DNA from: a virus
Lineage: Duplodnaviria; Heunggongvirae; Uroviricota; Caudoviricetes
DNA length: 64,000 bases
Virus record (IMG/VR): IMGVR_UViG_3300037423_000296
Location: 11,541 to 75,540 of that record
Direction: 5' to 3' (one strand)
Part shown: positions 6,193 through 55,423 of the stretch, one piece after another
Position numbering within the stretch: the stretch's first letter is position 1
Layout: each line of letters begins with the position of its first letter
Made by a program: the position numbers and the translations under genes
The notes under the pieces: generated by a model
The model's database searches: none
Told to the model about the DNA's origin: nothing
What the model saw: only the letters and a program-made list of their open reading frames with translations

Positions 6193-6295
6193 CCGCAATT
6201 CGCCGGATTACCCTATGACCATTCCAATGAGAACAACAATTCCCATTAGAACGAATGCCAACATAACCGCATAAACCAATAGGGTAATCACTACG

Positions 6296-6547
6296 TCACG
6301 CAATTGCCTTAGCCCAATACAGGACACCGTTGCATTCTTGCTCGAATGGCAAGGGTGAATTGCGCAAGGCAGAATAGATAGGCGCGTATATCTCATCCGC
6401 ACCCTCGCCTATCTCGTCATAGGCCTTATCCCAATTGCTTTCTACCTTGAGCAATAGTTCGGCTATGCATTCGTATGGGTTATCCCTTTTGATGATGGTA
6501 AAAGGCTCATTCCCTACAGCCTGCCATCCTGCCGCGTATCCGCTCAT
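6296..6547 (-). CDS. hypothetical protein
   Basis: ORF track. Confidence 0.4.
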   Translation of the reverse strand: MSGYAAGWQAVGNEPFTIIKRDNPYECIAELLLKVESNWDKAYDEIGEGADEIYAPIYSALRNSPLPFEQECNGVLYWAKAIA

Positions 6548-6651
6548 ATCCCTATCCCTACGGTCACAGCCCTACCCATGCGGGTAGGGCTTTAGCTGTG
6601 TGCCTAAGCCTGTCTAGCTAGGCAGTGTGCCTATGCCTAAAGGCACGGGCT

Positions 6652-6924
6652 CTATGCTGGGATAGGCCTGTAGATATCCACCCTCTCACCCTTGCCTACA
6701 GACACAGGGAAAGGCTGATTGAACGAACCGAAATAGGTCTCTACTTTCTCCCCCGACACGCTAGCTACGCGGGTATAGGTGGCAATGTCGATTCCCCGTA
6801 CGGGCACTAGTACACGCAAGTAGTCACCCTCTCGGATGCTACGCACGGTCCTGTCAGTGAGCCTGTCTACCCTGAGAGTCTGCATATTCGGGAGGGTAAT
6901 CGTCGCCTTAATTGCCTTTGCCAT
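6652..6924 (-). CDS. hypothetical protein (start moved to MAKAIKAT)
   Basis: ORF track, internal ATG chosen. Confidence 0.4.
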   Translation of the reverse strand: MAKAIKATITLPNMQTLRVDRLTDRTVRSIREGDYLRVLVPVRGIDIATYTRVASVSGEKVETYFGSFNQPFPVSVGKGERVDIYRPIPA

Positions 6925-7104
6925 AGTGCTAAATGCCTTTCTAGTGGTTTTTGGTGGGTAATTGGCATTAATTGGGCCAATATCCCTTGTTTTTCGCCAA
7001 AATCGGCGCTTTTTGCGGTGAAAACAGGAACTTGTTCCTGTTTTATTACCCATAGTAACAATGGCAGAATATTGACGTTAGTTAACATTCTGCTAGGTAA
7101 AGCA

Positions 7105-7485
7105 TTAGGCAGGCTCGACTACTGCCAAAGCCAACGGTTGCGTGTCGTCGTCGGTAATGTGCAGCTTGATAACCGCATCCGGATAGTGCTCACGCGGATA
7201 CCTGAAAAGCAGTTCCGATTCGTCTGGGCTTTCGATGGGGTCGGAGTACCAAAGCCACATCTCCGAATCCTCGCCCACATTCGGAGTCAACTTCGAATCC
7301 GGCTCACGGTTGACGTAGTCGAAATCTTGCGTCAGCCAATGTCCCGACACGTACCTATCCACCAAAGCATCTTTGGCAGCTTCAAGGGTGGGGAATGTTT
7401 CTAAGTATTCCCATGGGTAGGACATGGCGTAGTTAGTGCCTCCGTACCATTCGACCCAGACCCGCGATTTTTCGTCAGTGCTCAT
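7105..7485 (-). CDS. hypothetical protein
   Basis: ORF track. Confidence 0.5.
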   Translation of the reverse strand: MSTDEKSRVWVEWYGGTNYAMSYPWEYLETFPTLEAAKDALVDRYVSGHWLTQDFDYVNREPDSKLTPNVGEDSEMWLWYSDPIESPDESELLFRYPREHYPDAVIKLHITDDDTQPLALAVVEPA

Positions 7486-7580
7486 CCTGCCTAGACCTTT
7501 CGTGATTGTCCCTAGATTCGATTCTGAGAGACTTTGGCACAGTGAGGGTAGGTCACCCCACCCTCACCCGCCATGATGCC

Positions 7581-7790
7581 TCAGACTCGCTTGTACGCCG
7601 TCCGTGGATTCGGTAGCGGCTGACTGCCTTCCGGCCACGTGTAAATGTGGTACTGGCCTGCCGGATATTTGTCTTTGCGCAGACCAAAGCGAATGACGTT
7701 ATCGACACTCGCGTAATGCTCGAAAGACTGGTCATCCGTCCCGAGCTTTTCTCGTCCGCTCTCAGTGAGTGCGACGACTAGATAGCGCAT
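7581..7790 (-). CDS. hypothetical protein
   Basis: ORF track. Confidence 0.45.
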   Translation of the reverse strand: MRYLVVALTESGREKLGTDDQSFEHYASVDNVIRFGLRKDKYPAGQYHIYTWPEGSQPLPNPRTAYKRV

Positions 7791-7793
7791 GTC

Positions 7794-8126
7794 TCAATCC
7801 CTTTCCGCATGGTCGTATTCGAACGGGCATCGTGCGGACGGGTAAAGGTCTGGGAATGACTTGCCACACTCTCCGCAAGTCACCACATCGGAGCGGGTAG
7901 GGATTCCCTCGCCTTCCCATGTCTCTACCCATTCGCTTTGGTCACCCTCACTGAAAACAAGGGTGACGCTAAAGCGGTCCTCTCCGAAGTAATCCGGATT
8001 CATTCGGGATTTCAACTCATCCCGAATTGCCACGTAGGCCGATTCCCTTCCACCATCACGGGTAACCCCGGTAACCAGCGCGTGCCAGTTACCGAAGTTG
8101 TCAGCCCATGTCTGCACGCTAGCCAT
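7794..8126 (-). CDS. hypothetical protein (Cys-rich C-terminus)
   Basis: ORF track. Confidence 0.5.
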   Translation of the reverse strand: MASVQTWADNFGNWHALVTGVTRDGGRESAYVAIRDELKSRMNPDYFGEDRFSVTLVFSEGDQSEWVETWEGEGIPTRSDVVTCGECGKSFPDLYPSARCPFEYDHAERD

Positions 8127-8373
8127 TGGTCAATTTCTCCAATCGGTATTCGGTGTCAGTGTCAAGGAAGAAATCCTCACCCTTGACGATGATGTAAACG
8201 CTCGCGGAATTGCCGTAGGCCATGGCGTAAACCCGTCGCCAAATACCCGCGTATTTCAGCATGTAGCGGGTAGGAATCTTCCCTCCGTACCCGCTCACTG
8301 TCTGCCCGCTACGCGGAACATCGGTCACCCTCGCGTCAGTCACAAGCTGACTGTCTGTGCGCTGCACTGTCAT
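8119..8373 (-). CDS. hypothetical protein
   Basis: ORF track. Confidence 0.45.
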   Translation of the reverse strand: MTVQRTDSQLVTDARVTDVPRSGQTVSGYGGKIPTRYMLKYAGIWRRVYAMAYGNSASVYIIVKGEDFFLDTDTEYRLEKLTNG

Positions 8374-8428
8374 GTCTCATCCCTTCCAAGCCTGTAAGGC
8401 ATGGGAAAGCGGTTGCTAAGGCTCTAAC

Positions 8429-8462
8429 GGGTCCGACCCTAGGGAAGGCCTAGGGTCGGACC
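8429..8462. repeat. perfect 14-bp inverted repeat ggtccgaccctagg/cctagggtcggacc (hairpin/operator)
   Basis: read in sequence; intergenic. Confidence 0.5.
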
Positions 8463-8539
8463 TTGAAATCGTCTCTGTGAGCCCTACAGGCTCACTGCCG
8501 TAGGCACAGGCTTACAGGCCTGCCTAGCGGACACAGGCT

Positions 8540-8931
8540 CTACGCGCCTGCCGGACCCCATGACGGAGACTGGTCTACGGTGCCTCCGTCGTCACCCTCA
8601 CCCTCCCAATCGGCGTATTGGTCCTCAAGCTGCCGGTAGCGACGGATGAGGTCCGATTCCGCGTGATAGCGGGTGATGTGGATAAACCCTTGCGAGTCAG
8701 TCATCACGAGAAAGTAACCGACTGCCTCACGCAATTGCTCGTCAGTCATGCCGTAAGCGCTGATGACATCAGCGAATGAGTCTTTGATTCCTCCCGGCCA
8801 TCCGAAGACTTCCGACTCACTGTTGCTAATGCGCGCGAAATGACCGGTAGGGCTTTCAACGTCTCCGTCCGATTCGTTCGCCCACCCTCCGGTAATCATG
8901 GCGTCGAATAGGGCTTCAAGCGGAGTACGCA
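8540..8931 (-). CDS. hypothetical protein (start at MRTPLEALF)
   Basis: ORF track trimmed to internal ATG adjacent to upstream stop. Confidence 0.45.
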
Positions 8932-8945
8932 TGATGTGCTGCCTT

Positions 8946-9347
8946 TCAGTCGTCGTAACGTGCCCAGTACGGGTCACTGGTTGGAAGGGATGCCGCGAGA
9001 TTGCACATCCCTTGATAGCGAGAGGTAGTGGGCGAGTAGGACACGTCAGGGATAACCCATCCGTGAGTTTCCTTTGGTCCACCCTCGCTAGTGGGTACCC
9101 ACCATGCAATAGGCGTGTCATAGGACCACACAACGTATTGCGCTCCGGAGTGAATGAAACGGTCCTGCCATTCGGCAGGCAGTTGCGTGTCTGTCGGCAG
9201 GCTGAGGCTCGCACCCTCGCGGATGTTCTCTCCCCTGTGCGAGAGGGTGGCAGTGCGGAAATTCCGCATCATGTTCACCTCTCGTGCTACCTGCCTACGG
9301 GTGACCTTGCGAGTCATGGCAATTTCCTTTCTTGGCTTTGCCTTCAT
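8946..9347 (-). CDS. hypothetical protein
   Basis: ORF track. Confidence 0.4.
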   Translation of the reverse strand: MKAKPRKEIAMTRKVTRRQVAREVNMMRNFRTATLSHRGENIREGASLSLPTDTQLPAEWQDRFIHSGAQYVVWSYDTPIAWWVPTSEGGPKETHGWVIPDVSYSPTTSRYQGMCNLAASLPTSDPYWARYDD

Positions 9348-9416
9348 TGGTCGCTAGTGAGCACTAGCTTTCGCGTCACCCGCGATTTTTCGCACGGGTG
9401 ACACAAGAGTCATTGC

Positions 9417-9758
9417 TCACTCTGGGCTGTAACCGTCCGCATGTTCCTGCTCCGTGATTTCGTACAGCCTGCCGCTCGAATGGCGCTGTCTCGCAGTAGG
9501 TGGCTTAGGCGGGTTAGTGAACAACTCCGATTCACTCGCCCACCATCCGCACCTACGCTGCAAAGCTTCAAGCGCGCTTGCCTTAGATGCGACTCGCACA
9601 TCACTGCCCGTGGAAAACACGTAGAGCGGATTCCGGTCATCGTCAATCAGCCGGATTTCCCATCCGGCATCGATGACTGTCACGTATCGACGGGTGAAGC
9701 CTGCCTGTATCGACACGCGGAATTCAATCCGGTTGTTAATGGGCTCGAATGTCGCCAT
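9417..9758 (-). CDS. hypothetical protein
   Basis: ORF track. Confidence 0.45.
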   Translation of the reverse strand: MATFEPINNRIEFRVSIQAGFTRRYVTVIDAGWEIRLIDDDRNPLYVFSTGSDVRVASKASALEALQRRCGWWASESELFTNPPKPPTARQRHSSGRLYEITEQEHADGYSPE

Positions 9759-10018
9759 TCCTTACCACCTACTCACTCTCACTAGTGATTCCGTGAGCAA
9801 CGCATTTAGCTTGCGTCCGCTCTCCAATAAATCCCGTGCGAATGCTGCCAATCGCTTGGGGTCGGTTGTGTAAATCCCGAATTCGCTACCGATAAAAGTA
9901 GCGACTCTGATTGTGTCTGTGCGTCGATTCATTCCCTCACCCCTTTGTAAGTTCCCAGCATGAGCAACGCCATGGCAGCGCTAGGCCTGCCGTAAGGCCT
10001 AGCGTCACCAAAGGTCTC

Positions 10019-10321
10019 TCAGTCTGCCGCGTACCAACGTTCCGTCATCGGGTCCAAGACAGGCATGAGAGTGACTGTGTAGTCGTTAATGACTTCATCC
10101 GGCTCATTGCCTAGCACGAAGTAAACGAATCCTTCGTGGTCATCCTTACTGACGTAAAGGTGAGCCGAATCAAGCGCCATGATTGCAGCGATTGCCTCAC
10201 CCTCCTTTGTGACTGGGATGGACTCCTCACCATCCCAGACCGAATCAAGTTCCCACCCTGCCGCACGTAGTGCGCGGATGGTTTGGCGAATACCTGCTTT
10301 GTCGCTAGTCGGCGCTGCCAT
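10019..10321 (-). CDS. hypothetical protein (start at MAAPTSDK)
   Basis: ORF track trimmed. Confidence 0.4.
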   Translation of the reverse strand: MAAPTSDKAGIRQTIRALRAAGWELDSVWDGEESIPVTKEGEAIAAIMALDSAHLYVSKDDHEGFVYFVLGNEPDEVINDYTVTLMPVLDPMTERWYAAD

Positions 10322-10335
10322 GTCAGTAGTTCCAA

Positions 10336-10641
10336 TCAGTGAGTGACGATGAATCGGTAACCAGTGTGAATCACGCGGTAAGCCTTGAGCATGCCGAACC
10401 GACGAAATCGGTAGGCGGTTGACCATGAAAGGTGAGGCAGGGTGAATCTCACGCTATGACGTGTCCACCCTGCCGCATTGTCGTAAGGCCTATCCCATGC
10501 GACGAATGCACGCGGGTAGAACGTGCCTGCCTTTGCATTCATATCTAGGCCGAACGTCACCCGTCCGTACCCGCGAACTTTCGTCTCACAATCCACGATT
10601 AGCGCTTGTGAGAGTTTGGTGGGTTTGTTTCGACGTTGCAT
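10336..10641 (-). CDS. hypothetical protein (101 aa, C-terminal part of the longer R-rich ORF)
   Basis: ATG directly after stop of upstream gene. Confidence 0.4.
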   Translation of the reverse strand: MQRRNKPTKLSQALIVDCETKVRGYGRVTFGLDMNAKAGTFYPRAFVAWDRPYDNAAGWTRHSVRFTLPHLSWSTAYRFRRFGMLKAYRVIHTGYRFIVTH

Positions 10642-10642
10642 G

Positions 10643-11155
10643 TCAGTAACCCGCCATTTCCGCGTATTGGTCATAGACCGTGTTTCTCGGAGTCTCGCAT
10701 TCGTCAGTGCACATATAGATTTCTCTGTGCCTGTATCCCTCTTCCGTGGATTCCGACCATTCCGCTTTGTAGTCGAATTGCGAATACGGGTCACTCTGTA
10801 CCCGCATCGTTCCGTCAATCGCACAGGGTGAGGACAACCAATGCACGTGGAATGACCAAAATCCGAATGCGTCGATTTCTCCGGATTCGGCATCGATGAA
10901 ACGCTCATCGTCGCGACCCCAATAAATCCCGTGGTCACCGTGCCCACCATCACAGTCACGGGATGACTCTTCCCAGTGAATGTGAACGTTGGGGAATTGC
11001 TCGCGGTCAATCTGCAAAGCCTCTGCGTGCCGAATGTCCTCCAATGACTCAGGACCAATCGGGTGACGCCATGTCGGAATTTCGCACTCGCCATCCCAGT
11101 AGGCGAGTTCGTTCCCTGTGCTGGTCGGAGTGCAGTTTTCAAGCGTGTAACTCAT
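10643..11155 (-). CDS. hypothetical protein (171 aa, Cys/His-rich)
   Basis: ORF track trimmed to MSYTLENC; preceded by repeated upstream element A. Confidence 0.5.
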   Translation of the reverse strand: MSYTLENCTPTSTGNELAYWDGECEIPTWRHPIGPESLEDIRHAEALQIDREQFPNVHIHWEESSRDCDGGHGDHGIYWGRDDERFIDAESGEIDAFGFWSFHVHWLSSPCAIDGTMRVQSDPYSQFDYKAEWSESTEEGYRHREIYMCTDECETPRNTVYDQYAEMAGY

Positions 11156-11161
11156 GTCGGC

Positions 11162-11258
11162 ACCTTTCCTGTGTTGGCTGTATGCCGTTGTGCGTGTATC
11201 TGACACGCCATGGCTGAGACAGGGATTGCATGGTCCTGTCTCGCCAAAGTCAGTCAGC
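11162..11258 (-). promoter_or_regulatory. repeated upstream element copy A (cctttcctgtgttggctg ... hairpin gagacagg-N11-cctgtctc ... gtcagtcag)
   Basis: three-copy element with covarying stems. Confidence 0.55.
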
Positions 11259-11432
11259 CTGCCTTCACTCCGAGTCCGGGCGTCCACATACCCTCGCCCA
11301 CCTTGAATTTGAAGCCTGACGAATCGACACAGAGTCGAAATCGCCTGTCAAAGTTCCGAGCATTCGTCAGCGCTTCGAGCAATTGCGCTTGCTCGCGTTC
11401 TGACAATTCGATGATGTTCACTGCACAACCTT

Positions 11433-11738
11433 TCAGATTGTCGGAATGTCGTTAGGGTGCTGCCGTACCCATTCGGCGCAATAGGCAGTGTCCTCCATGC
11501 AATCGACCCATACCGCGTATACCGACCATGCGGATACATGCGGGTAGGCAGCCGCGATAGCGGCTAGGAACAAGGCCTGTGAAGCCTTGTATGTGTCTGT
11601 CCAGCATCCCGAAACGTCATTGCTGGGATGAGCCGAAACGATGTGGTGATGCCGCCTAGCCTCCTCCGCAATCTGCCGCGCCAAATCCTGCCGCGTGACT
11701 CCGAATGACTCCTCTGTCACTGTCTCGAAAACTGCCAT
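11433..11738 (-). CDS. hypothetical protein
   Basis: ORF track trimmed to MAVFETV. Confidence 0.5.
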   Translation of the reverse strand: MAVFETVTEESFGVTRQDLARQIAEEARRHHHIVSAHPSNDVSGCWTDTYKASQALFLAAIAAAYPHVSAWSVYAVWVDCMEDTAYCAEWVRQHPNDIPTI

Positions 11739-11745
11739 GGTGGCT

Positions 11746-11824
11746 TTCCCTTTCCTGTGTTGGCTGAGTTGCCATGGTTGCGGCAGGGAATGCATGTTCC
11801 TGCCGCACCAAAGTCAGTCAGTCA
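11746..11824 (-). promoter_or_regulatory. repeated upstream element copy B (hairpin gcggcagg-N11-cctgccgc)
   Basis: see copy A. Confidence 0.55.
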
Positions 11825-12066
11825 AGGACTCCCCTGCTCCGAAGTTCCGCCACTACGTCATCACGCCGTGCGCGTTGACGCGAGGTGTGCGACTCACCGC
11901 GAGCGCATGACATCTTGTATTCGACAAACTCTCGGACTAATTCCGGAGTCGTCATGACTTGGGGGTCCGCTCCAAGAATGTCTCCGAGCAATGTCCGCAT
12001 CATTCGCATGGTCTCAATTCCTAACGAATCGGAGGGATGGGCTTTCAGTGAGTAGAGCAACCGCAT
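11818..12066 (-). CDS. hypothetical protein
   Basis: ORF track. Confidence 0.4.
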   Translation of the reverse strand: MRLLYSLKAHPSDSLGIETMRMMRTLLGDILGADPQVMTTPELVREFVEYKMSCARGESHTSRQRARRDDVVAELRSRGVLD

Positions 12067-12232
12067 TCGAATAGGGAACGTTTATCCCTACCCGTTCCCA
12101 ATGCGTACCGTTCACGCTGTATGCCGAATAGGTCGCATAAGCGTTGAAACGGTCTGTGAGCTTCAAGCCTGACAAGGCGAGTTGAGTGTCAGTCATGACA
12201 ACCGGTCTCCTACGTAATCGCCCTCGCCCCAA
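12014..12232 (-). CDS. hypothetical protein
   Basis: ORF track; overlaps neighbour. Confidence 0.3.
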   Translation of the reverse strand: MGRGRLRRRPVVMTDTQLALSGLKLTDRFNAYATYSAYSVNGTHWERVGINVPYSNAVALLTESPSLRFVRN

Positions 12233-12399
12233 ACGACACTGTTGTAACCGGGGCCGTATTCCACGTTCACCCGAAGCGCATTCACCCGCACTCCGTAACC
12301 CTCCAAAAGCAGGGTTAGCGCGAGGGAAGTAGCCTCCTCAGCATTCGGCGCTGTAATGCCTCCGCTGAAACCGTCAATCGTAATGTGCATTTCCTGCAT
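12193..12399 (-). CDS. hypothetical protein
   Basis: ORF track trimmed to MQEMHITIDG. Confidence 0.45.
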   Translation of the reverse strand: MQEMHITIDGFSGGITAPNAEEATSLALTLLLEGYGVRVNALRVNVEYGPGYNSVVWGEGDYVGDRLS

Positions 12400-12478
12400 T
12401 CCTTTCCTGTGTTGGCTGAAATGCCATTCGGGCTGACAGCGCATGTCTGTCAGCCCTAGATGACGTGTCAGTCAGTGA
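12398..12478 (-). promoter_or_regulatory. repeated upstream element copy C (hairpin ggctgacag-N7-ctgtcagcc)
   Basis: see copy A. Confidence 0.55.
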
Positions 12479-12743
12479 CCCGCTCCGCATAGGCCAAATC
12501 CTCGCGGTACTGCAAAGCCCATTGGTCACCCGCTGCCTTAACGAACGGATGGAAGTAGGTAGACACGTTGTCATCCGCTGCCACACATCCAACGTTCCAA
12601 CCAACCGTGACCCCATCCGCTTTGAAGCTGAAAGGCTCAGCCACTACGCGGAACAACGTTCCACCTTCGTTCACTACGTCACCCGGTTTCAATTCCGAGT
12701 AGTGCACTCTGTGTGTCGTCATTGCATGTCCTCTCACAGGCAA
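12468..12743 (-). CDS. hypothetical protein
   Basis: ORF track. Confidence 0.5.
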   Translation of the reverse strand: MPVRGHAMTTHRVHYSELKPGDVVNEGGTLFRVVAEPFSFKADGVTVGWNVGCVAADDNVSTYFHPFVKAAGDQWALQYREDLAYAERVTD

Positions 12744-13559
12744 GGCCTACAGACTGTCTGTCTGCCTTGTGAGTGCTAGGCATGCGTCGGAGTCCGCTTG
12801 TTTCGAGTGACTGTCTCCGAGTAGTCACTCACCCTTACCTGTGCCCACATCATCGCGTCGGTGTCTTGCATCCGCGCTAGCGCCATGTCCTAAGGGAACC
12901 TGCCGTGAATAGCATTCCGACCTTGCACGTCAGCCGGAGTATTCCAACGGGCCTTGAGATTCAGTTGTCCTGCTTACCCTGTGCGGGTTGTCCTGCTCTC
13001 CGCGCTTCCCTCGCGTGCCCGATGGGCTGACTTGCGAGTGCCTGTGCTCCGAGCGGAGCGGCTGGCGGGGTGTTTCGGTGTTGCAATGAGGACACTACGT
13101 AGGCCGTAGAGACGCACAAAGTCGTCAAGGCCCATATCCCATCATCGTTATCATTCCGTTATCAAAAACTACGCTCTGTGCATGAAATTAGCGCTCGCTA
13201 TCTACGCAGAGTGAGATTGAGCGTAGACAGTGTGTCAGTCTGTGAGACGGATTGTCTCAGCATTCGAGAAATAACCGACAATGATGTTCAATAAGGCCGA
13301 TTCCGAGCCTGTGCCTATGCAGTGTTTATCTATATGCGCTCCGCACAGGCCTGCCGTGAGCCTGTGAGCCTGCCTAGTGACTGTGCGCCTGTCTCAGCCG
13401 CAGACACTGCCGGTAGGCCTGTCGGCATGCGCTCCGAGACTGCCTGTCAGGTGACTTCGGAGGGTGCCTGTCTGTTGCTACAGGCAACATAGTTACTCAG
13501 AGTGAAAATCGCCTGTAATCGACGTTTAGCCTTCGGTAGGTATGTGACCCTAGCTAGGC

Positions 13560-13990
13560 ACTCTCAATCGCTTAGCAAGCGCTTTCCGAGATAACGCTTT
13601 CCGTAAACAACCTTTCCGATTGAAGCGGTTGTTTGAATCTTGAGCGCAGCACATTCGAACAAATGTTCGTTCGAACAGATTTTCGAAAATTCTCAATTAG
13701 TAAAGGTCCGTTCGTTTAGTAAGTCTGAGGTTACTTAGTAAAGGTTCGTTATTAATCCCGGCGGAATTAGTAAAGAAGCCTTCTTATCTATTCGAACAAG
13801 CGTTCGATTTGGTAAGCGCTTTCCCGGTAAACGCTTTCCGACAACGATTTTCATTCCCAACTGTGGGGGCCGGGGGCCATTTACGAATGGGGCTTACGAA
13901 AGCGGGAGTTTTACGACCGGGACTTTTAAAAGCGGGAGTTACGAATTACGAATTGATTTACAAAAGAGGAAAACCCCGGCTCTTTGCCGG
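13560..13990. repeat. repeat-dense non-coding hub: CGCTTTCCG x4, TTAGTAAAGGTyCGTT x2-3, CGAACA-NN-YGTTCG palindromes x2, TTACGAA x4, AGCGGGAGTT x2
   Basis: direct reading; no ORF >=60 aa from 12780 to 13809. Confidence 0.7.
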
Positions 13991-14399: not shown

Positions 14400-14428
14400 A
14401 CTCTAGTGCGTGAGAGTCAGCCTGTCAA
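14400..14428 (-). promoter_or_regulatory. promoter TTGACA-N17-TAGAGT
   Basis: consensus match on minus strand. Confidence 0.55.
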
Positions 14429-17873: not shown

Positions 17874-19306
17874 GCATGAAGGGCTAGATGACCCCCGTTA
17901 AGAACCCATCTAGCCCTAGTGCTCTTCCGCACGACGGTTTGAGCAGTTAACCAATCAGGCACCTGACAAATGCTATTGGTTCTCTGTGCTTCCGGTTGTC
18001 AGCCTCACAGAGTGGGCTTATGCCTCCGTTATCTCAACCACCATTAGCACGGAAGCTACACTAATGGTGTGTAAAAGTGAAGAGAGCCAGCCGACGCATT
18101 GCATCACAGCAAAGCATTCAGTCTAAATGCCTTTCATCGTTGACTAGACGATTAAGCTCTCCCCAACTTGCGCTCCCAGCGGGAGTTGAACCCGCGCTAA
18201 TACATTGACAATGTATCGTGCTGCCGTAACACTTTGAGAGCAATCGCCGGGTTTTGTTAAGTGGCTCCCTGCTAATACCCGGCTGATTAGCAGAAATCTT
18301 GAGCCGATGAGTGAATGCGCCTACCCATTCCACAGGGCTTTAGTACGCATTCGCTAGTGGAATTCCCTAACTCGCCTTGAGCGTCGGGCTAGCCTCACCA
18401 CGTGTTTTTGTCGTTGCCATGACTAGTATTGGCTTTCCCGTCTCGCCAGACGTTCCACGCAATGAGTAACCTTTGACGTTATCGCCGGTTGCGGTCCTTG
18501 AATGCTACCCGGTAAACCGGACATCTTCACCTAACCTCACTGCCGCTCTATGCCTAAGGATGCTATTTATACTCGCATAGACGAGTGTTGAGGCGCATTA
18601 GCTGTCGTATGCTATGCGAATTGATAGGTCAGTCCGGGGCTCGTTCTACAGGTTCCAGCCTTCGCCACTTCAACCCGCTTCCACCCTAACCATTCCATTC
18701 TGGCTCTCCGCACAAGGGACTAGAACCCAAGCTCTCCTCAACGTGTCACCCCATCCGGTTAATTCCGGTCCTGCCAACCCCAGTTAAAGGCTGACTATGC
18801 TTTCCTGCTTAACGGCAGGCCTATACACTAATGGGAAGCTTATGGGGTGGACGCTAAGACCAGTGTTCTTCATTCCGGGCGTACCGGACTTCCACTTACG
18901 TCTCTTATCTAACACAAGACCCCGCAGAATTTCGAATCGGTGCCAGTTCACCCTGTGATTCTCCATTCTGACCCCGGCTTTTTCTAGCAAGCGTGACCAA
19001 GCCACCGGGGATTTGCTTTTGCTGGTGTGGGTGGCGTTTATACACTCTCCCCTAATCCGGGCGTACCCAGAAGCCACATGCCCATCTTGTCTAGTGTTAG
19101 ACCAGCAATTCGCTATTCAGTTGTCAAGGTGTTGCCTAACTTCCTTGGTTTGTATATCTTAATCTTGCCTTGATTCTCGGAGCTTGTCAAGTAGCTGTGG
19201 GAAGTTTTTCATCATCTCGGCCCACTGCTCAGACTCAGCCTTGAGACACTTGGCACACCGCTCCTCGTGCCAACCAGTAGTCTCACTACCCGGCTTGCAG
19301 TCGCAG

Positions 19307-54697: not shown

Positions 54698-54712
54698 CTC
54701 TTCCTCTCTAAT

Positions 54713-54790
54713 TGTGGAGTCGCGGGGAATTGAACCCCGGTCCTTTGCATTCAATCGTACATCCGAATTACAGCCATCCCTATTCTTTAG
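54713..54790 (-). ncRNA. tRNA-like fragment (perfect T-arm CGGGG-UUCAAUU-CCCCG; no acceptor partner found)
   Basis: manual reading. Confidence 0.3.
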
Positions 54791-55108
54791 ACCTTTACGA
54801 TTGAAGGTGGTCCCAGGATAAGTCCGTCTACCTCTGGCCTTTTAAACTGATGCCGAGCAGTAGGGGGGGTGAACAGTTTGTAGGCGAAGCCACTGTTCGA
54901 TTTCCACCACTGACCTTTCTGTTCCTAGGCAGTCAGCGCCCGATGCTCAATCCTCAGACTGAAGCAAGGTCGTACTCAGCGCAAAGCGCCTCGTACTCTG
55001 CATCAATGTTGTCAGTTGCAGTTATTGTTTGTCAAGTGTTTAACGACTCTCTCAACGAAGTCGGGCTGCGTTCATACTCTCTAGTTCAAAGTCGATACCT
55101 TTCGACCC

Positions 55109-55423
55109 CTAAGGCAAATATACTTTTGCCAAGTTATTGTCTACAAGTAGTTTATTGAGACTTTCAGTACCGGCGAAAACCTCTGCCAGCCAGCGACCGT
55201 ACTTCTCTTTCTTGTAGGTATTGATTGTAACTGTTGGATTCTTTGCAAAGAAGGACTTTACGAAGGCTGTTGCCTCTGCCCATCCTACCTGACCACGCTC
55301 TGGCGTGTCAATTCCATACAATCTGAAAACCGTATCAACTCTAATATCAAATCCCAGGTCTACTGTTAGTTCTACAGTATCACCATCTACCGCTCTAACA
55401 AAGTCTGCCTTGTATTGGTACAT
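55109..55423 (-). CDS. thermonuclease (staphylococcal nuclease-like, SNase domain)
   Basis: VRAVDGDTVEL..RLYGIDTPE..KYGRWLA motifs. Confidence 0.8.
   Translation of the reverse strand: MYQYKADFVRAVDGDTVELTVDLGFDIRVDTVFRLYGIDTPERGQVGWAEATAFVKSFFAKNPTVTINTYKKEKYGRWLAEVFAGTESLNKLLVDNNLAKVYLP

What the first reader, a model, noticed from the sequence alone, without database searches (positions are those of the whole stretch)
11162..12478. Three copies of an ~85-bp upstream element with a covarying hairpin
Copies lie at 11162-11258, 11746-11824 and 12398-12478. Each sits immediately upstream of a start codon (11155, 11738, 12399) of three unrelated genes. All share cctttcctgtgttggctg and gtcagtcag. 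Each contains a hairpin whose stem sequence differs but stays perfectly complementary (gagacagg/cctgtctc, gcggcagg/cctgccgc, ggctgacag/ctgtcagcc) around a loop containing GCATG. Compensatory change indicates a selected RNA or DNA structure, such as a 5' UTR regulatory hairpin, an RNA-processing site, or a recombination or cassette boundary.
Basis: seen in the sequence. Interest (0 to 1): 0.75.

Follow-up and report, generated by a model that had tools for sequence, protein, structure and literature searches.

The report
Conserved hairpin-plus-ribosome-site module between phage genes
Three gene junctions in this uncultured actinomycete-type phage carry the same module: clustered stop codons, a hairpin conserved in shape but not in sequence, and an invariant 18-base ribosome-binding leader; it is a real, selected RNA signal of a broadly known kind whose exact job is still unproven.

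Summary
The exact 18-mer occurs three times, against 0.08 expected. Each copy has an 8-10 bp hairpin and sits in front of an unrelated gene. The genes lie on the minus strand, where the element reads: stop codons (CTGACTGAC), hairpin, TGGCA, CAGCCAACACAGGAAAGG, 6-10 nt, ATG.

I recovered 23 distinct copies from nine lineages of the same uncultured phage clade, whose neighbouring protein is only 38-57% identical.
- The 18-mer is almost invariant.
- The stem sequence is unrelated between lineages yet pairs. On seven copies, 99% of cells pair and 11 of 16 pairs show compensatory change.
- The mRNA strand folds better than its complement in 17 of 20 copies, so the structure acts in RNA.
- The GCATG loop is not conserved.
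- There is no sigma-70 promoter, U-tract, integrase or Rfam match.

Most likely reading: an intercistronic expression module of a promoter-poor operon. The hairpin would insulate or stabilise the mRNA, and the leader supplies an unusual GGAAAGG Shine-Dalgarno site that characterises this operon.

The closest analogues are Cluster K mycobacteriophage SAS/ESAS and T4-type PeSLs. It fails the defining tests of both, so I call it a new variant of a known kind.

The operon also begins with an atypical promoter-like motif and a ~370-nt covarying leader RNA with no Rfam match.

The parts
11156..11258 (-). Copy 1, whole element, in front of gA (10643-11155, 170 aa). It carries an extra 23 nt with a small hairpin between the main hairpin and the leader.
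   Evidence: CM hits 11200-11252 at 39.3 bits and 11151-11193 at 21 bits
11206..11252 (-). Copy 1 extended stem-loop. The core stem GAGACAGG/CCTGTCTC is at 11216-11242. The lower stem is built from the conserved flanks UGACUUUGGC / GCCAUGGC. The stop codon of the upstream 55-aa gene (11254-11256) lies just 5' of it.
11163..11180 (-). Copy 1 invariant 18-mer leader CAGCCAACACAGGAAAGG. The Shine-Dalgarno GGAAAGG lies 7 nt before the ATG at 11155.
11739..11824 (-). Copy 2, whole element, in front of gB (11433-11738, 101 aa; an ORFan of this phage). It is the orthologue of the element that precedes gA in the relatives.
   Evidence: 92 bits, E 1.5e-23
11770..11816 (-). Copy 2 extended stem-loop of 16 bp. 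The core is GCGGCAGG/CCTGCCGC (perfect 9-bp stem hairpin 11779-11807). TGACTGACTGA at 11813-11823 closes all three reading frames.
11749..11766 (-). Copy 2 18-mer leader, 10 nt before the ATG at 11738.
12391..12478 (-). Copy 3, whole element (the 'type 3' leader TGGCATTT..GGAATGCA), in front of gC (12193-12390/12399).
   Evidence: 30.9 bits, E 1.3e-6
12423..12464 (-). Copy 3 stem-loop. The core is GGGCTGACAG/CTGTCAGCCC at 12430-12456, plus the outer pairs GUCAU/AUGGC. The stop of the upstream 84-aa gene is at 12468-12470.
12401..12418 (-). Copy 3 18-mer leader. The likely start codon is at 12390 (10 nt spacer). The ATG at 12399 lies inside the conserved AATGCA and is not in a consistent frame in relatives.
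9969..10012 (-). Fourth hairpin module with the same flanks (TTTGG..CCATGGC) after the stop of the 100-aa gene. It lacks the 18-mer.
   Evidence: not recovered by the CM at E<=1
7525..7572 (+). Hairpin module with left flank TGAGAGACTTTGG in the opposite orientation to the genes. Its meaning is unclear.
13092..13128 (-). Context: promoter-like motif TTGACG-N21-TACGTAGTGT, found once in each of the seven lineages that carry it. It is the only candidate promoter upstream of the element-bearing operon.
12723..13095 (-). Context: conserved structured leader between that motif and the first gene of the operon. RNAalifold was run on its first ~316 nt (12780-13095).
   Evidence: 59 pairs, 23 with compensatory change in 5 lineages; no Rfam hit

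Best explanation
The element is an intercistronic expression module that acts in the mRNA of one long phage operon (window about 13.1 to 6.2 kb, minus strand). It has three parts.

1. A cluster of stop codons (usually TGAnTGA) ends the upstream cistron in two or three frames. The stop itself forms part of the lower stem.
2. A stem-loop follows. Its lower stem is made by the conserved flanks (UGACUUUGGN / N'CCAUGGCA). Its upper stem is free to change as long as it pairs. I infer that it insulates the junction and protects RNA ends, acting as a 3' cap for the upstream cistron and a 5' hairpin for the downstream one. It may also be a processing site.
3. An unpaired, nearly invariant leader, CAGCCAACA(Y)AGGAAAGG, places an atypical Shine-Dalgarno sequence 6-10 nt before the AUG. 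GGAAAGG is complementary to the extreme 3' end (CCUUUCU) of Gram-positive/actinobacterial 16S rRNA. The invariant CAGCCAACA half cannot be explained by rRNA pairing, so it probably binds a further factor (a protein, a nuclease or the ribosome itself).

Shown: the anatomy, the conservation, the covariation, the strand, and the position relative to stops and starts.
Inferred: stabilisation/insulation, the rRNA pairing, and the extra factor.
For: - Abundance: three exact 18-mers against 0.08 expected.
- Distribution: 23 distinct copies in nine lineages. A stop-to-hairpin-to-leader-to-ATG order is visible in 21 of the 23; the two type-3 copies in L037 and L040 follow the operon leader with no called upstream ORF.
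- Conservation: the element is 96-97% identical to L040/L037, while the adjacent gA coding DNA is 66-68% identical.
- A hairpin in every copy: mean best stem 8.2 bp and mean z -3.7. The 3' end of the stem lies 11-15 nt before the 18-mer in most copies. Only 2.3% of background windows have a stem of 8 bp or more.
- Covariation: 16 pairs, 99.1% of cells paired, 11 pairs with changes on both sides, 0 of 500 shuffles as good, and slid controls 38-50% paired. On 31 distinct covariance-model hits: 94.9% paired and 16 of 16 pairs compensatory.
- Strand: the coding strand is more stable in 17 of 20 copies (Wilcoxon p = 0.0017). It has 36 G-U pairs against 20 on the complement, including a conserved U-G pair.
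- The leader is unpaired in the MFE folds, and an ATG follows 6-10 nt after GGAAAGG in every copy.
- Operon-wide RBS class: GAAAGG-N4-11-ATG occurs 8 times in 6.5 kb here against 3 times in the other 49.6 kb. GGAGG-N-ATG occurs 0 against 27 times. Relatives show the same split.
- Promoters: 27 TTGACA-N17/18-TANNNT promoters lie elsewhere on this strand and none lies inside the operon.
- Stops: at least two frames are closed in 21 of 23 copies against 24% of background windows.
- Host and RNA metabolism: the window encodes WhiB and SsgA, pointing to an actinomycete host, and a 3'-5' exoribonuclease, which would make 3' hairpins useful.
Against: - There are no expression data, so no RNA ends are mapped.
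- The host, and therefore its 16S 3' end, is inferred rather than known.
- A plain strong RBS would not need the invariant CAGCCAACA.
- The copies are not phylogenetically independent, so the p-values overstate the evidence.
- One hairpin module lies in the opposite orientation. That fits a structure-only role, but it also hints at DNA-level behaviour.
- In L037 and L040 one copy keeps GACTGAC with no called ORF upstream.
- Stems of 12-20 bp without a U-tract are not diagnostic of any one nuclease or of termination.
Confidence: 0.5

Rival explanations
1. Recombination linker or cassette boundary, PeSL-like. On this reading the conserved flanks and leader are kept mainly because they serve as short homology patches. 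Gene cassettes and hairpin alleles would be swapped through them between co-infecting relatives.
For: - In the window the ORFan gB plus a 55-aa gene are bracketed by copies 2 and 1. In all relatives the copy-2-type element directly precedes gA.
- Genes between the 'type 3' and 'type 2' elements are non-homologous between the window phage and the relatives compared, L037/L038 and L040.
- Between strains with 100% identical flanks, only the ~24-nt hairpin core is replaced. The replacement allele matches the hairpin of the most distant relative, L049.
- Two metagenome contigs (L003, L006) begin 77 nt upstream of gA, inside copy 1.
- T4-type PeSLs show that such linkers exist (PMC2839356).
Against: - Element positions are syntenic across all lineages, so they look orthologous rather than mobile.
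- Gene indels occur in the same region without any element, for example the 193-nt insertion in L005.
- The gene after gA differs in each lineage although no element is present there.
- Homology patches would not require covariation, a fixed distance to the ATG or multi-frame stops.
- Recombination is more likely a by-product of conservation than its cause.
Confidence: 0.2
2. Terminator plus phage-specific promoter. On this reading the hairpin stops upstream transcription. The contiguous conserved block TGGCAWYTCAGCCAACAYAGGAAAGG would be a promoter for a phage-modified or phage-encoded RNA polymerase that starts just before the Shine-Dalgarno sequence.
For: - The operon has no sigma-70-type promoter, although 27 lie elsewhere on this strand.
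- The conserved block is contiguous and about 26 nt long, the size of single-subunit RNA polymerase promoters (own knowledge).
- It is far better conserved than the coding DNA.
Against: - Every copy sits 6-10 nt before an ATG and contains the ribosome-binding site.
- The hairpins lack the U-tract that this phage's clear terminators have, for example 13996-13970.
- A promoter-like motif found once per genome, plus a leader, lies upstream of the whole operon.
- No RNA polymerase or sigma factor was found among the 62 ORFs of at least 90 aa scanned outside the 6.2-12.8 kb operon. The rest of the genome was not seen.
Confidence: 0.12
3. DNA-level site. On this reading a protein binds the TGGC-N6-GCCA palindrome or a DNA hairpin/cruciform, acting as an operator, an attC-like recombination site or a replication signal.
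For: - TGGCAACTCAGCCA is an inverted repeat.
- The module has imperfectly complementary conserved outer arms and a variable centre at the 3' ends of promoter-less cassettes behind one promoter, a layout that recalls integron attC sites (own knowledge).
- One module is inverted.
- An iteron-rich, ori-like stretch lies about 1 kb upstream.
Against: - G-U pairs and folding energy favour the sense RNA. On the complementary strand these pairs are C-A mismatches.
- The stem sequence is not conserved, so no sequence-specific duplex site exists there.
- No integrase or other recombinase domain was found in the window.
- No GTTRRRY/RYYYAAC boxes are present.
Confidence: 0.08
4. Leftover of local duplication or chance, with no function of its own.
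For: The three copies lie within 1.3 kb of each other.
Against: - The element is conserved at 96-97% across lineages whose coding DNA is 66-68% identical.
- Compensatory changes are seen in all 16 pairs.
- Its position relative to stops and starts is fixed.
Confidence: 0.02

Closest known systems
[quoted passage not shown] 2011, PMC3203893; function still unverified in 2025, PMC12699233)
   Same: - An asymmetric, very well conserved motif sits a few bases upstream of the start codons of a subset of non-structural genes in an actinobacteriophage.
- The motif contains a Shine-Dalgarno core, but its conservation extends to bases that cannot pair with 16S rRNA.
- The stop codon of the upstream gene can lie inside the repeat.
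- About half of the SAS have an inverted repeat just upstream.
   Different: - The motif sequence is different. GGGATAGGAGCCC is absent from the window.
- The motif here is 18 nt long rather than 13.
- The ESAS arms are conserved in sequence and their departures do not support RNA pairing, so a DNA-binding site was proposed. Here the arms are not conserved in sequence and do covary, on the mRNA strand.
- This phage clade is unrelated to Cluster K.
PeSL (promoter-early stem-loop) cassettes of T4-type phages (Arbiol et al. 2010, PMC2839356; Comeau et al. 2014, PMC4122927)
   Same: [quoted passage not shown]
- They occur in gene-dense, hyperplastic regions rich in ORFans.
- Each contains a stem-loop and a Shine-Dalgarno sequence.
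- They are associated with cassette differences between close relatives.
   Different: - A PeSL contains a sigma-70-like promoter between the stem-loop and the Shine-Dalgarno sequence. Here there is no room for one and no match to one.
- PeSL stem-loops have a family consensus (for example GGGG..CCCC) and terminate transcription. Here the stems are variable and lack a U-tract.
- Mini-circle formation was not testable here.
Intercistronic RNase III processing hairpins of phage early operons (T7 R0.3-R1.3; SP82/SPO1) and 5'/3' stabiliser hairpins. These are recalled from established literature and were not re-read here.
   Same: - Hairpins sit between cistrons of a long phage transcript.
- A purine-rich ribosome-binding sequence follows.
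- The helices are 12-20 bp long with bulges.
   Different: No cleavage data exist. The helix length is shorter than a canonical RNase III substrate in several copies. The T7 sites are conserved in sequence.
Integron attC sites
   Same: - The outer arms are conserved and imperfectly complementary, around a variable centre.
- The sites lie at the 3' ends of promoter-less cassettes downstream of a single promoter.
   Different: No integrase was found in the window, there are no R boxes, and the signal favours RNA on the sense strand.

Membership tests
Cluster K SAS | 13-bp consensus GGGATAGGAGCCC (up to 2 mismatches) upstream of starts | tested here: not met
   0 matches in the window at up to 2 mismatches
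Cluster K SAS | Conserved asymmetric motif with a Shine-Dalgarno core a few bp before start codons, conserved beyond what rRNA pairing explains | tested here: met
   The 18-mer lies 6-10 nt before the ATG in 23 of 23 copies. CAGCCAACA is near-invariant (A/C variation at one position).
Cluster K ESAS | Pair of 17-bp inverted repeats with a conserved consensus sequence whose departures do not support RNA pairing | tested here: not met
   The stems are unrelated in sequence between lineages, and 11-16 of 16 pairs change compensatorily. Definition taken from PMC3203893.
T4-type PeSL | Sigma-70-like promoter (-35/-10) between the stem-loop and the Shine-Dalgarno sequence | tested here: not met
   No promoter-like site appears in 6.2-14.4 kb other than at 14428. 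Only about 26 nt separate the hairpin from the Shine-Dalgarno sequence.
T4-type PeSL | Stem-loop that terminates transcription | not testable with these tools
   There is no U-tract after the stem. Function needs a reporter assay.
T4-type PeSL | Flanks ORFans that differ between close relatives; recombination between copies | tested here: inconclusive
   The gB cassette is bracketed by copies, and a hairpin allele is swapped. However, the positions are syntenic and indels also occur without elements.
Intrinsic (Rho-independent) terminator | G+C-rich hairpin followed by a U-tract | tested here: not met
   The scan lists none at the three sites. The sequence after the stems is (A)ACCATGGCA / GAATGGCA.
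Integron attC | R''/R' boxes (RYYYAAC / GTTRRRY) and a nearby IntI tyrosine recombinase | tested here: not met
   The flanks are GACTTTGG / CCATGGC. No integrase domain appears among 62 window ORFs. The rest of the genome was not seen.
Any Rfam family | Match to a curated covariance model | tested here: not met
   No hit at the elements with the gathering or E<=10 thresholds
RNase III intercistronic processing site | About two helical turns of dsRNA between cistrons, cleaved in vivo | tested here: inconclusive
   The helices are 12-20 bp with bulges. Cleavage cannot be tested.
REP/BIME-type repetitive extragenic palindromes | Palindrome of conserved sequence repeated many times in both orientations | tested here: not met
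   The palindromic core is not conserved and the window holds only 3-5 copies. One copy is inverted.

The most novel reading that the evidence does not exclude
The elements may be the cis targets of a dedicated expression regime for this operon. The operon starts at an atypical promoter (TTGACR-N21-TACRTAGTGT) and a ~370-nt covarying leader RNA with no Rfam family. It has no internal promoters, has hairpins at nearly every junction, and uses a private ribosome-binding class (GAAAGG instead of GGAGG). The most novel reading that the evidence does not exclude has two alternative forms. In one, the leader RNA makes RNA polymerase read through the junction hairpins (processive antitermination). 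In the other, a phage factor recognises CAGCCAACA to switch translation or processing of these cistrons as a temporal class. Either would be a new phage regulatory RNA system in actinomycete phages.
Probability: 0.12. Interest if true: 0.8.

Novelty: new variant of a known kind. Interest (0 to 1): 0.5.

Why it matters
Conserved start-associated motifs in actinobacteriophages (SAS/ESAS) have been known since 2011 but still lack a verified function. This family offers a cleaner case.
- The linear leader is almost invariant.
- The adjacent hairpin is constrained only in shape, with the signal on the mRNA strand.
- The whole operon uses a separate ribosome-binding class.

That separates an RNA-structure role from a sequence-recognition role and makes both directly testable with reporter fusions.

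The module (multi-frame stops, insulating hairpin, fixed leader) is also a natural version of the insulated junctions that synthetic biologists design, and it might be portable to Streptomyces-type hosts.

The neighbouring ~370-nt structured leader RNA is a candidate new RNA family.

Tried and rejected
**Searches for the element elsewhere**
- Megablast, blastn and a 91-nt element query against INPHARED phages found nothing relevant.
- Exact 18-mer scans of IMG/VR and of metagenome contigs returned only chance hits. These share no similarity beyond the motif with the window and have no hairpin.
- A degenerate 25-mer scan of GTDB genomes and of IMG/VR returned 0 hits.
- gA-profile searches of IMG/VR and GTDB genomes found no relatives.
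- Attempts to recover the rest of the source genome returned only short contigs.

**Readings tested and rejected**
- Rfam: no family.
- Sigma-70 promoter inside the element: none.
- Leader peptide starting at the conserved CCATGG: rejected. The 23-nt insertion in copy 1 changes the frame, and no Shine-Dalgarno sequence precedes that ATG (read).
- Antisense or trans partner for the leader within the window: only trivial self-complement hits.
- Translational bypass of the T4 gene 60 type: rejected. The downstream ORFs are independent, unrelated proteins with their own Shine-Dalgarno sequence and ATG.
- Functions of the operon proteins: Pfam and PHROGs give only families of unknown function.

**Technical notes**
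- MAFFT plus RNAalifold on all copies misaligned the unrelated stems. I therefore used a geometry-matched subset and a covariance model.
- gB has no homologues outside this phage, so its origin could not be traced.
Full report
**1. What the window is**

The 64-kb window comes from a large, uncultured phage.
- It carries 32 tRNA genes and a tmRNA at 40-63 kb.
- It has rIIA/rIIB-like genes. Their nearest cultured relatives are Streptomyces phages of about 130 kb, at about 36% amino-acid identity.
- It encodes WhiB and SsgA domains, which point to a sporulating actinomycete host.
- Other homologues of operon proteins occur only in actinobacteriophages.
- There is no DNA match in INPHARED.
- Around the finding all genes are on the minus strand.

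**2. Check of the observation**

- The 18-mer CCTTTCCTGTGTTGGCTG occurs exactly three times, at 11163, 11749 and 12401. No further site appears at up to 3 mismatches, and 0.08 are expected.
- GTCAGTCAG accompanies each copy.
- Perfect stems of 8, 9 and 10 bp lie at 11216-11242, 11779-11807 and 12430-12456. They fold in context with z about -3.1 to -3.5.
- The three downstream proteins are gA (170 aa), gB (101 aa) and gC (about 68 aa). They are unrelated to each other.

Read on the coding strand, the element has this order:
- the stop codon of the upstream gene, inside (C)TGACTGA(C);
- the hairpin;
- (CC)ATGGCA;
- CAGCCAACACAGGAAAGG;
- 6-10 nt;
- ATG.

**3. Relatives**

The source phage is not in IMG/VR, in the metagenome-contig collection or in GTDB genomes. 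I reached relatives another way.
- Exact-protein look-ups of gA found strain variants in JGI samples (L002-L006, L035, L036; 97-100% DNA identity).
- Look-ups of gA homologues (38-57% identity) gave eight more lineages (L037-L045, L049, L050).
- Every lineage carries the element. In total there are 23 distinct copies.

The conservation pattern is as follows.
- The 18-mer is almost invariant: CAGCCA(A/C)CA(N)AGGAAAGG.
- The element is 96-97% identical to L040 and L037, whereas the neighbouring gA coding DNA is 66-68% identical.
- Two positions are orthologous in most lineages with enough sequence. A 'type 3' copy (TGGCATTT..GGAATGCA) opens the first cassette of the operon. A 'type 2' copy (TGGCAACT..GGGAAAGCCA) precedes gA.

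**4. The hairpin is selected for shape, in RNA**

- Stem sequences are unrelated between lineages. Examples are GCGGCAGG, GGAATTGGT, GGGCTGAGA, GAGGCAGGT, GCACCCGC and ACCGATTGAGCAGAGA.
- Every copy nevertheless has a hairpin. The mean best Watson-Crick stem is 8.2 bp and the mean z is -3.7.
- In most copies the stem ends 11-15 nt before the 18-mer. Only 2.3% of background 62-nt windows have a stem of 8 bp or more.
- On a geometry-matched alignment of seven copies, a 16-pair helix is 99.1% paired. Eleven pairs change on both sides, 0 of 500 shuffles do as well, and slid controls are 38-50% paired.
- The lower stem is built by the conserved flanks (UGACUUUGGN with N'CCAUGGCA) and includes the stop codon. 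That explains why the flanks are conserved.
- A covariance model built from six copies finds 27 hits with E<0.02 in 178 kb, all on the gene strand. In the window it finds only the three copies.
- On 31 distinct hits, 94.9% of cells pair and all 16 pairs show compensatory change. That alignment was fitted to the model, so it leans towards the structure.
- The coding strand folds better than its complement in 17 of 20 copies (Wilcoxon p = 0.0017). It has 36 G-U pairs against 20, including a conserved U-G pair that would be a C-A mismatch on the other strand.
- I therefore read the structure as RNA on the mRNA strand.
- The GCATG loop of the three window copies is not conserved elsewhere.

**5. 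The leader**

- In the MFE folds the 18-mer is unpaired. An ATG follows GGAAAGG after 6-10 nt in every copy.
- GGAAAGG(A) is complementary to the 3' terminal CCUUUCU of actinobacterial and Gram-positive 16S rRNA. This rests on my own knowledge; the host rRNA was not available.
- This ribosome-binding class marks the whole operon. GAAAGG-N4-11-ATG occurs 8 times in 6.2-12.76 kb and 3 times in the other 49.6 kb. GGAGG-N-ATG occurs 0 and 27 times. The same split is seen in the relatives.
- The 5' half, CAGCCAACA, cannot be explained by rRNA pairing, and no antisense partner exists in the window. This is the main unexplained feature. It parallels what was noted for Cluster K SAS.

**6. Stops**

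- A stop-N-stop motif occurs in 17 of 23 copies, against 4% of random 32-nt windows. It is TGAnTGA in most copies, and TAGCTGA or TGAGTAG in L045.
- At least two frames are closed in 21 of 23 copies, against 24% of background windows. All three frames are closed in 5 copies.
- The copies are related to one another, so these numbers are descriptive rather than probabilities.

**7. Context**

- The minus strand has 27 promoters of the form TTGACA-N17/18-TANNNT, mostly TAGNNT, between 14.4 and 63 kb. It has none in 6.2-14.4 kb apart from one at 14428.
- A canonical terminator with a U-tract lies at 13996-13970.
- A gene-free stretch of about 1.2 kb follows. Its upstream part is full of short direct repeats and looks like an origin.
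- Its downstream part starts with a motif found once in each of the seven lineages that carry it, TTGAC(G/A)-N21-TAC(G/A)TAGTGT (13128-13092).
- A conserved leader follows. RNAalifold on five lineages gives 59 pairs, 23 of them with compensatory changes. There is no Rfam match.
- Nearly every intergenic gap of the operon that follows (12.7 to 6.2 kb) contains a strong hairpin.
- These include a fourth module with the same flanks but no 18-mer (9969-10012) and one in the opposite orientation (about 7525-7572, plus strand).
- The elements of the finding are therefore the best-conserved junctions of a promoter-poor, hairpin-punctuated operon.

**8. Mechanism**

- I commit to an RNA-level intercistronic expression module, with confidence 0.5.
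- The stops end upstream translation in more than one frame.
- The structure-only hairpin insulates the junction and protects RNA ends. The phage encodes an Rv2179c-like 3'-5' exoribonuclease.
- The single-stranded leader provides a special ribosome-binding site plus a recognition sequence for an unknown factor.
- The anatomy, conservation, covariation and strand are shown. Stabilisation or processing, and the extra factor, are inferred.

**9. Rivals**

(a) PeSL-like recombination linker, confidence 0.2.
- For: gB, an ORFan, and a 55-aa gene are bracketed by copies 2 and 1, whereas relatives have the copy-2-type element directly before gA.
- For: between strains with identical flanks only the hairpin core is replaced, and the new allele matches that of the most distant relative.
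- Against: the positions are syntenic, and indels also occur without elements.
- Recombination therefore looks like a consequence of conservation rather than its purpose.

(b) Terminator plus phage-specific promoter, confidence 0.12.
- It is not excluded, because the operon lacks sigma-70 promoters.
- Against: the fixed distance to the ATG, the missing U-tracts, the single upstream promoter-like motif, and no polymerase or sigma gene in the window.

(c) DNA-level site, confidence 0.08.
- The G-U asymmetry, the variable stems and the absence of a recombinase argue against it.

(d) Chance or a duplication relic.
- This is refuted.

**10. Comparison with known systems**

- The element works most like Cluster K SAS/ESAS and T4-type PeSLs, but it is a member of neither.
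- The SAS consensus is absent.
- ESAS arms are sequence-conserved and do not covary (PMC3203893), which is the opposite of the pattern here.
- PeSLs contain a sigma-70 promoter and terminating stem-loops (PMC2839356, PMC4122927). Here no promoter is present.
- The attC, intrinsic-terminator, REP and Rfam tests were all negative.
- I rate it a new variant of a known kind: start-associated or intercistronic regulatory cassettes of phages.

**11. Verdict**

- The finding is real and strongly selected, and the element family is new at the sequence level.
- The kind of element is not unprecedented, and its function is unproven.
- Interest is 0.5.
- The most novel reading left open is that the elements and the upstream structured leader form one dedicated antitermination or translation-class system. 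I put its probability at about 0.12.

Noticed in passing
window 12723-13128 (minus strand); also L035 8025, L037 8836, L040 9118, L041 6887, L044 3361, L045 3197: A promoter-like motif, TTGAC(G/A)-N21-TAC(G/A)TAGTGT, is found once in each of seven lineages. A conserved leader of about 370 nt follows it. RNAalifold on five lineages gives 59 pairs, 23 with compensatory changes. There is no Rfam match. This is a candidate new structured RNA at the head of the operon.
   Followed up: partly
window 13150-13970: This gene-free stretch is packed with short direct repeats: CTTTACTAA x4, GGAAAGCG(C)TT x4, TGTTCGAA x3 and TCGTAA. It looks like an origin of replication or another protein-binding array. 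Conserved islands are shared with L037, L038 and L040 (13565-13676).
   Followed up: no
window 18533-18586 (minus strand): A Pistol ribozyme match at 37.9 bits, above the gathering score of 34.5, lies next to tRNA-Asp (18170-18241).
   Followed up: no
window 6200-12760 versus 14400-64000 (minus strand): There are two classes of ribosome-binding site. GAAAGG-N4-11-ATG occurs 8 times against 3, and GGAGG-N-ATG occurs 0 times against 27. This coincides with the absence or presence of TTGACA-N17/18-TANNNT (mostly TAGNNT) promoters. The same split is seen in seven related contigs.
   Followed up: partly
window 11216-11242 versus L035 9915-9940, L036, and L049 about 160-185: Strains with 100% identical flanks (90 nt and 110 nt) differ only by complete replacement of the ~24-nt hairpin core. 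The replacement allele (loop AGTGTGA) matches the hairpin of the most distant relative. This indicates short-patch exchange of hairpin alleles between lineages.
   Followed up: yes
window 7525-7572 (plus strand): A hairpin module with the same left flank as the copy at 10021 (TGAGAGAC(C)TTTGG) lies in inverted orientation relative to the genes.
   Followed up: partly
window, 62 ORFs of at least 90 aa outside the 6.2-12.8 kb operon: The Pfam survey finds WhiB, SsgA, a Ro60 vWA domain, a CCA-adding/poly(A) polymerase head domain, an Rv2179c-like 3'-5' exoribonuclease, SNase, ThyX, RNase H, HIT, SprT-like, DUF932 and an SPFH domain. This is a rich set of RNA-metabolism genes next to 32 tRNAs and a tmRNA. 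A Ro60 homologue suggests that a Y-RNA-like partner might also be encoded. I did not map these domains to individual ORFs.
   Followed up: no
L005 92-284 versus window 12199-12204: A strain variant carries an extra 64-aa gene inserted between gC and the next gene, with no repeat element at the junction.
   Followed up: no
window 54712-55109 (minus strand): The phage tmRNA has an unusual predicted tag peptide, ATDNIDAEYEALCAEYDLASV. A relative (L037 18953-19315) encodes an RF-1 domain protein.
   Followed up: no
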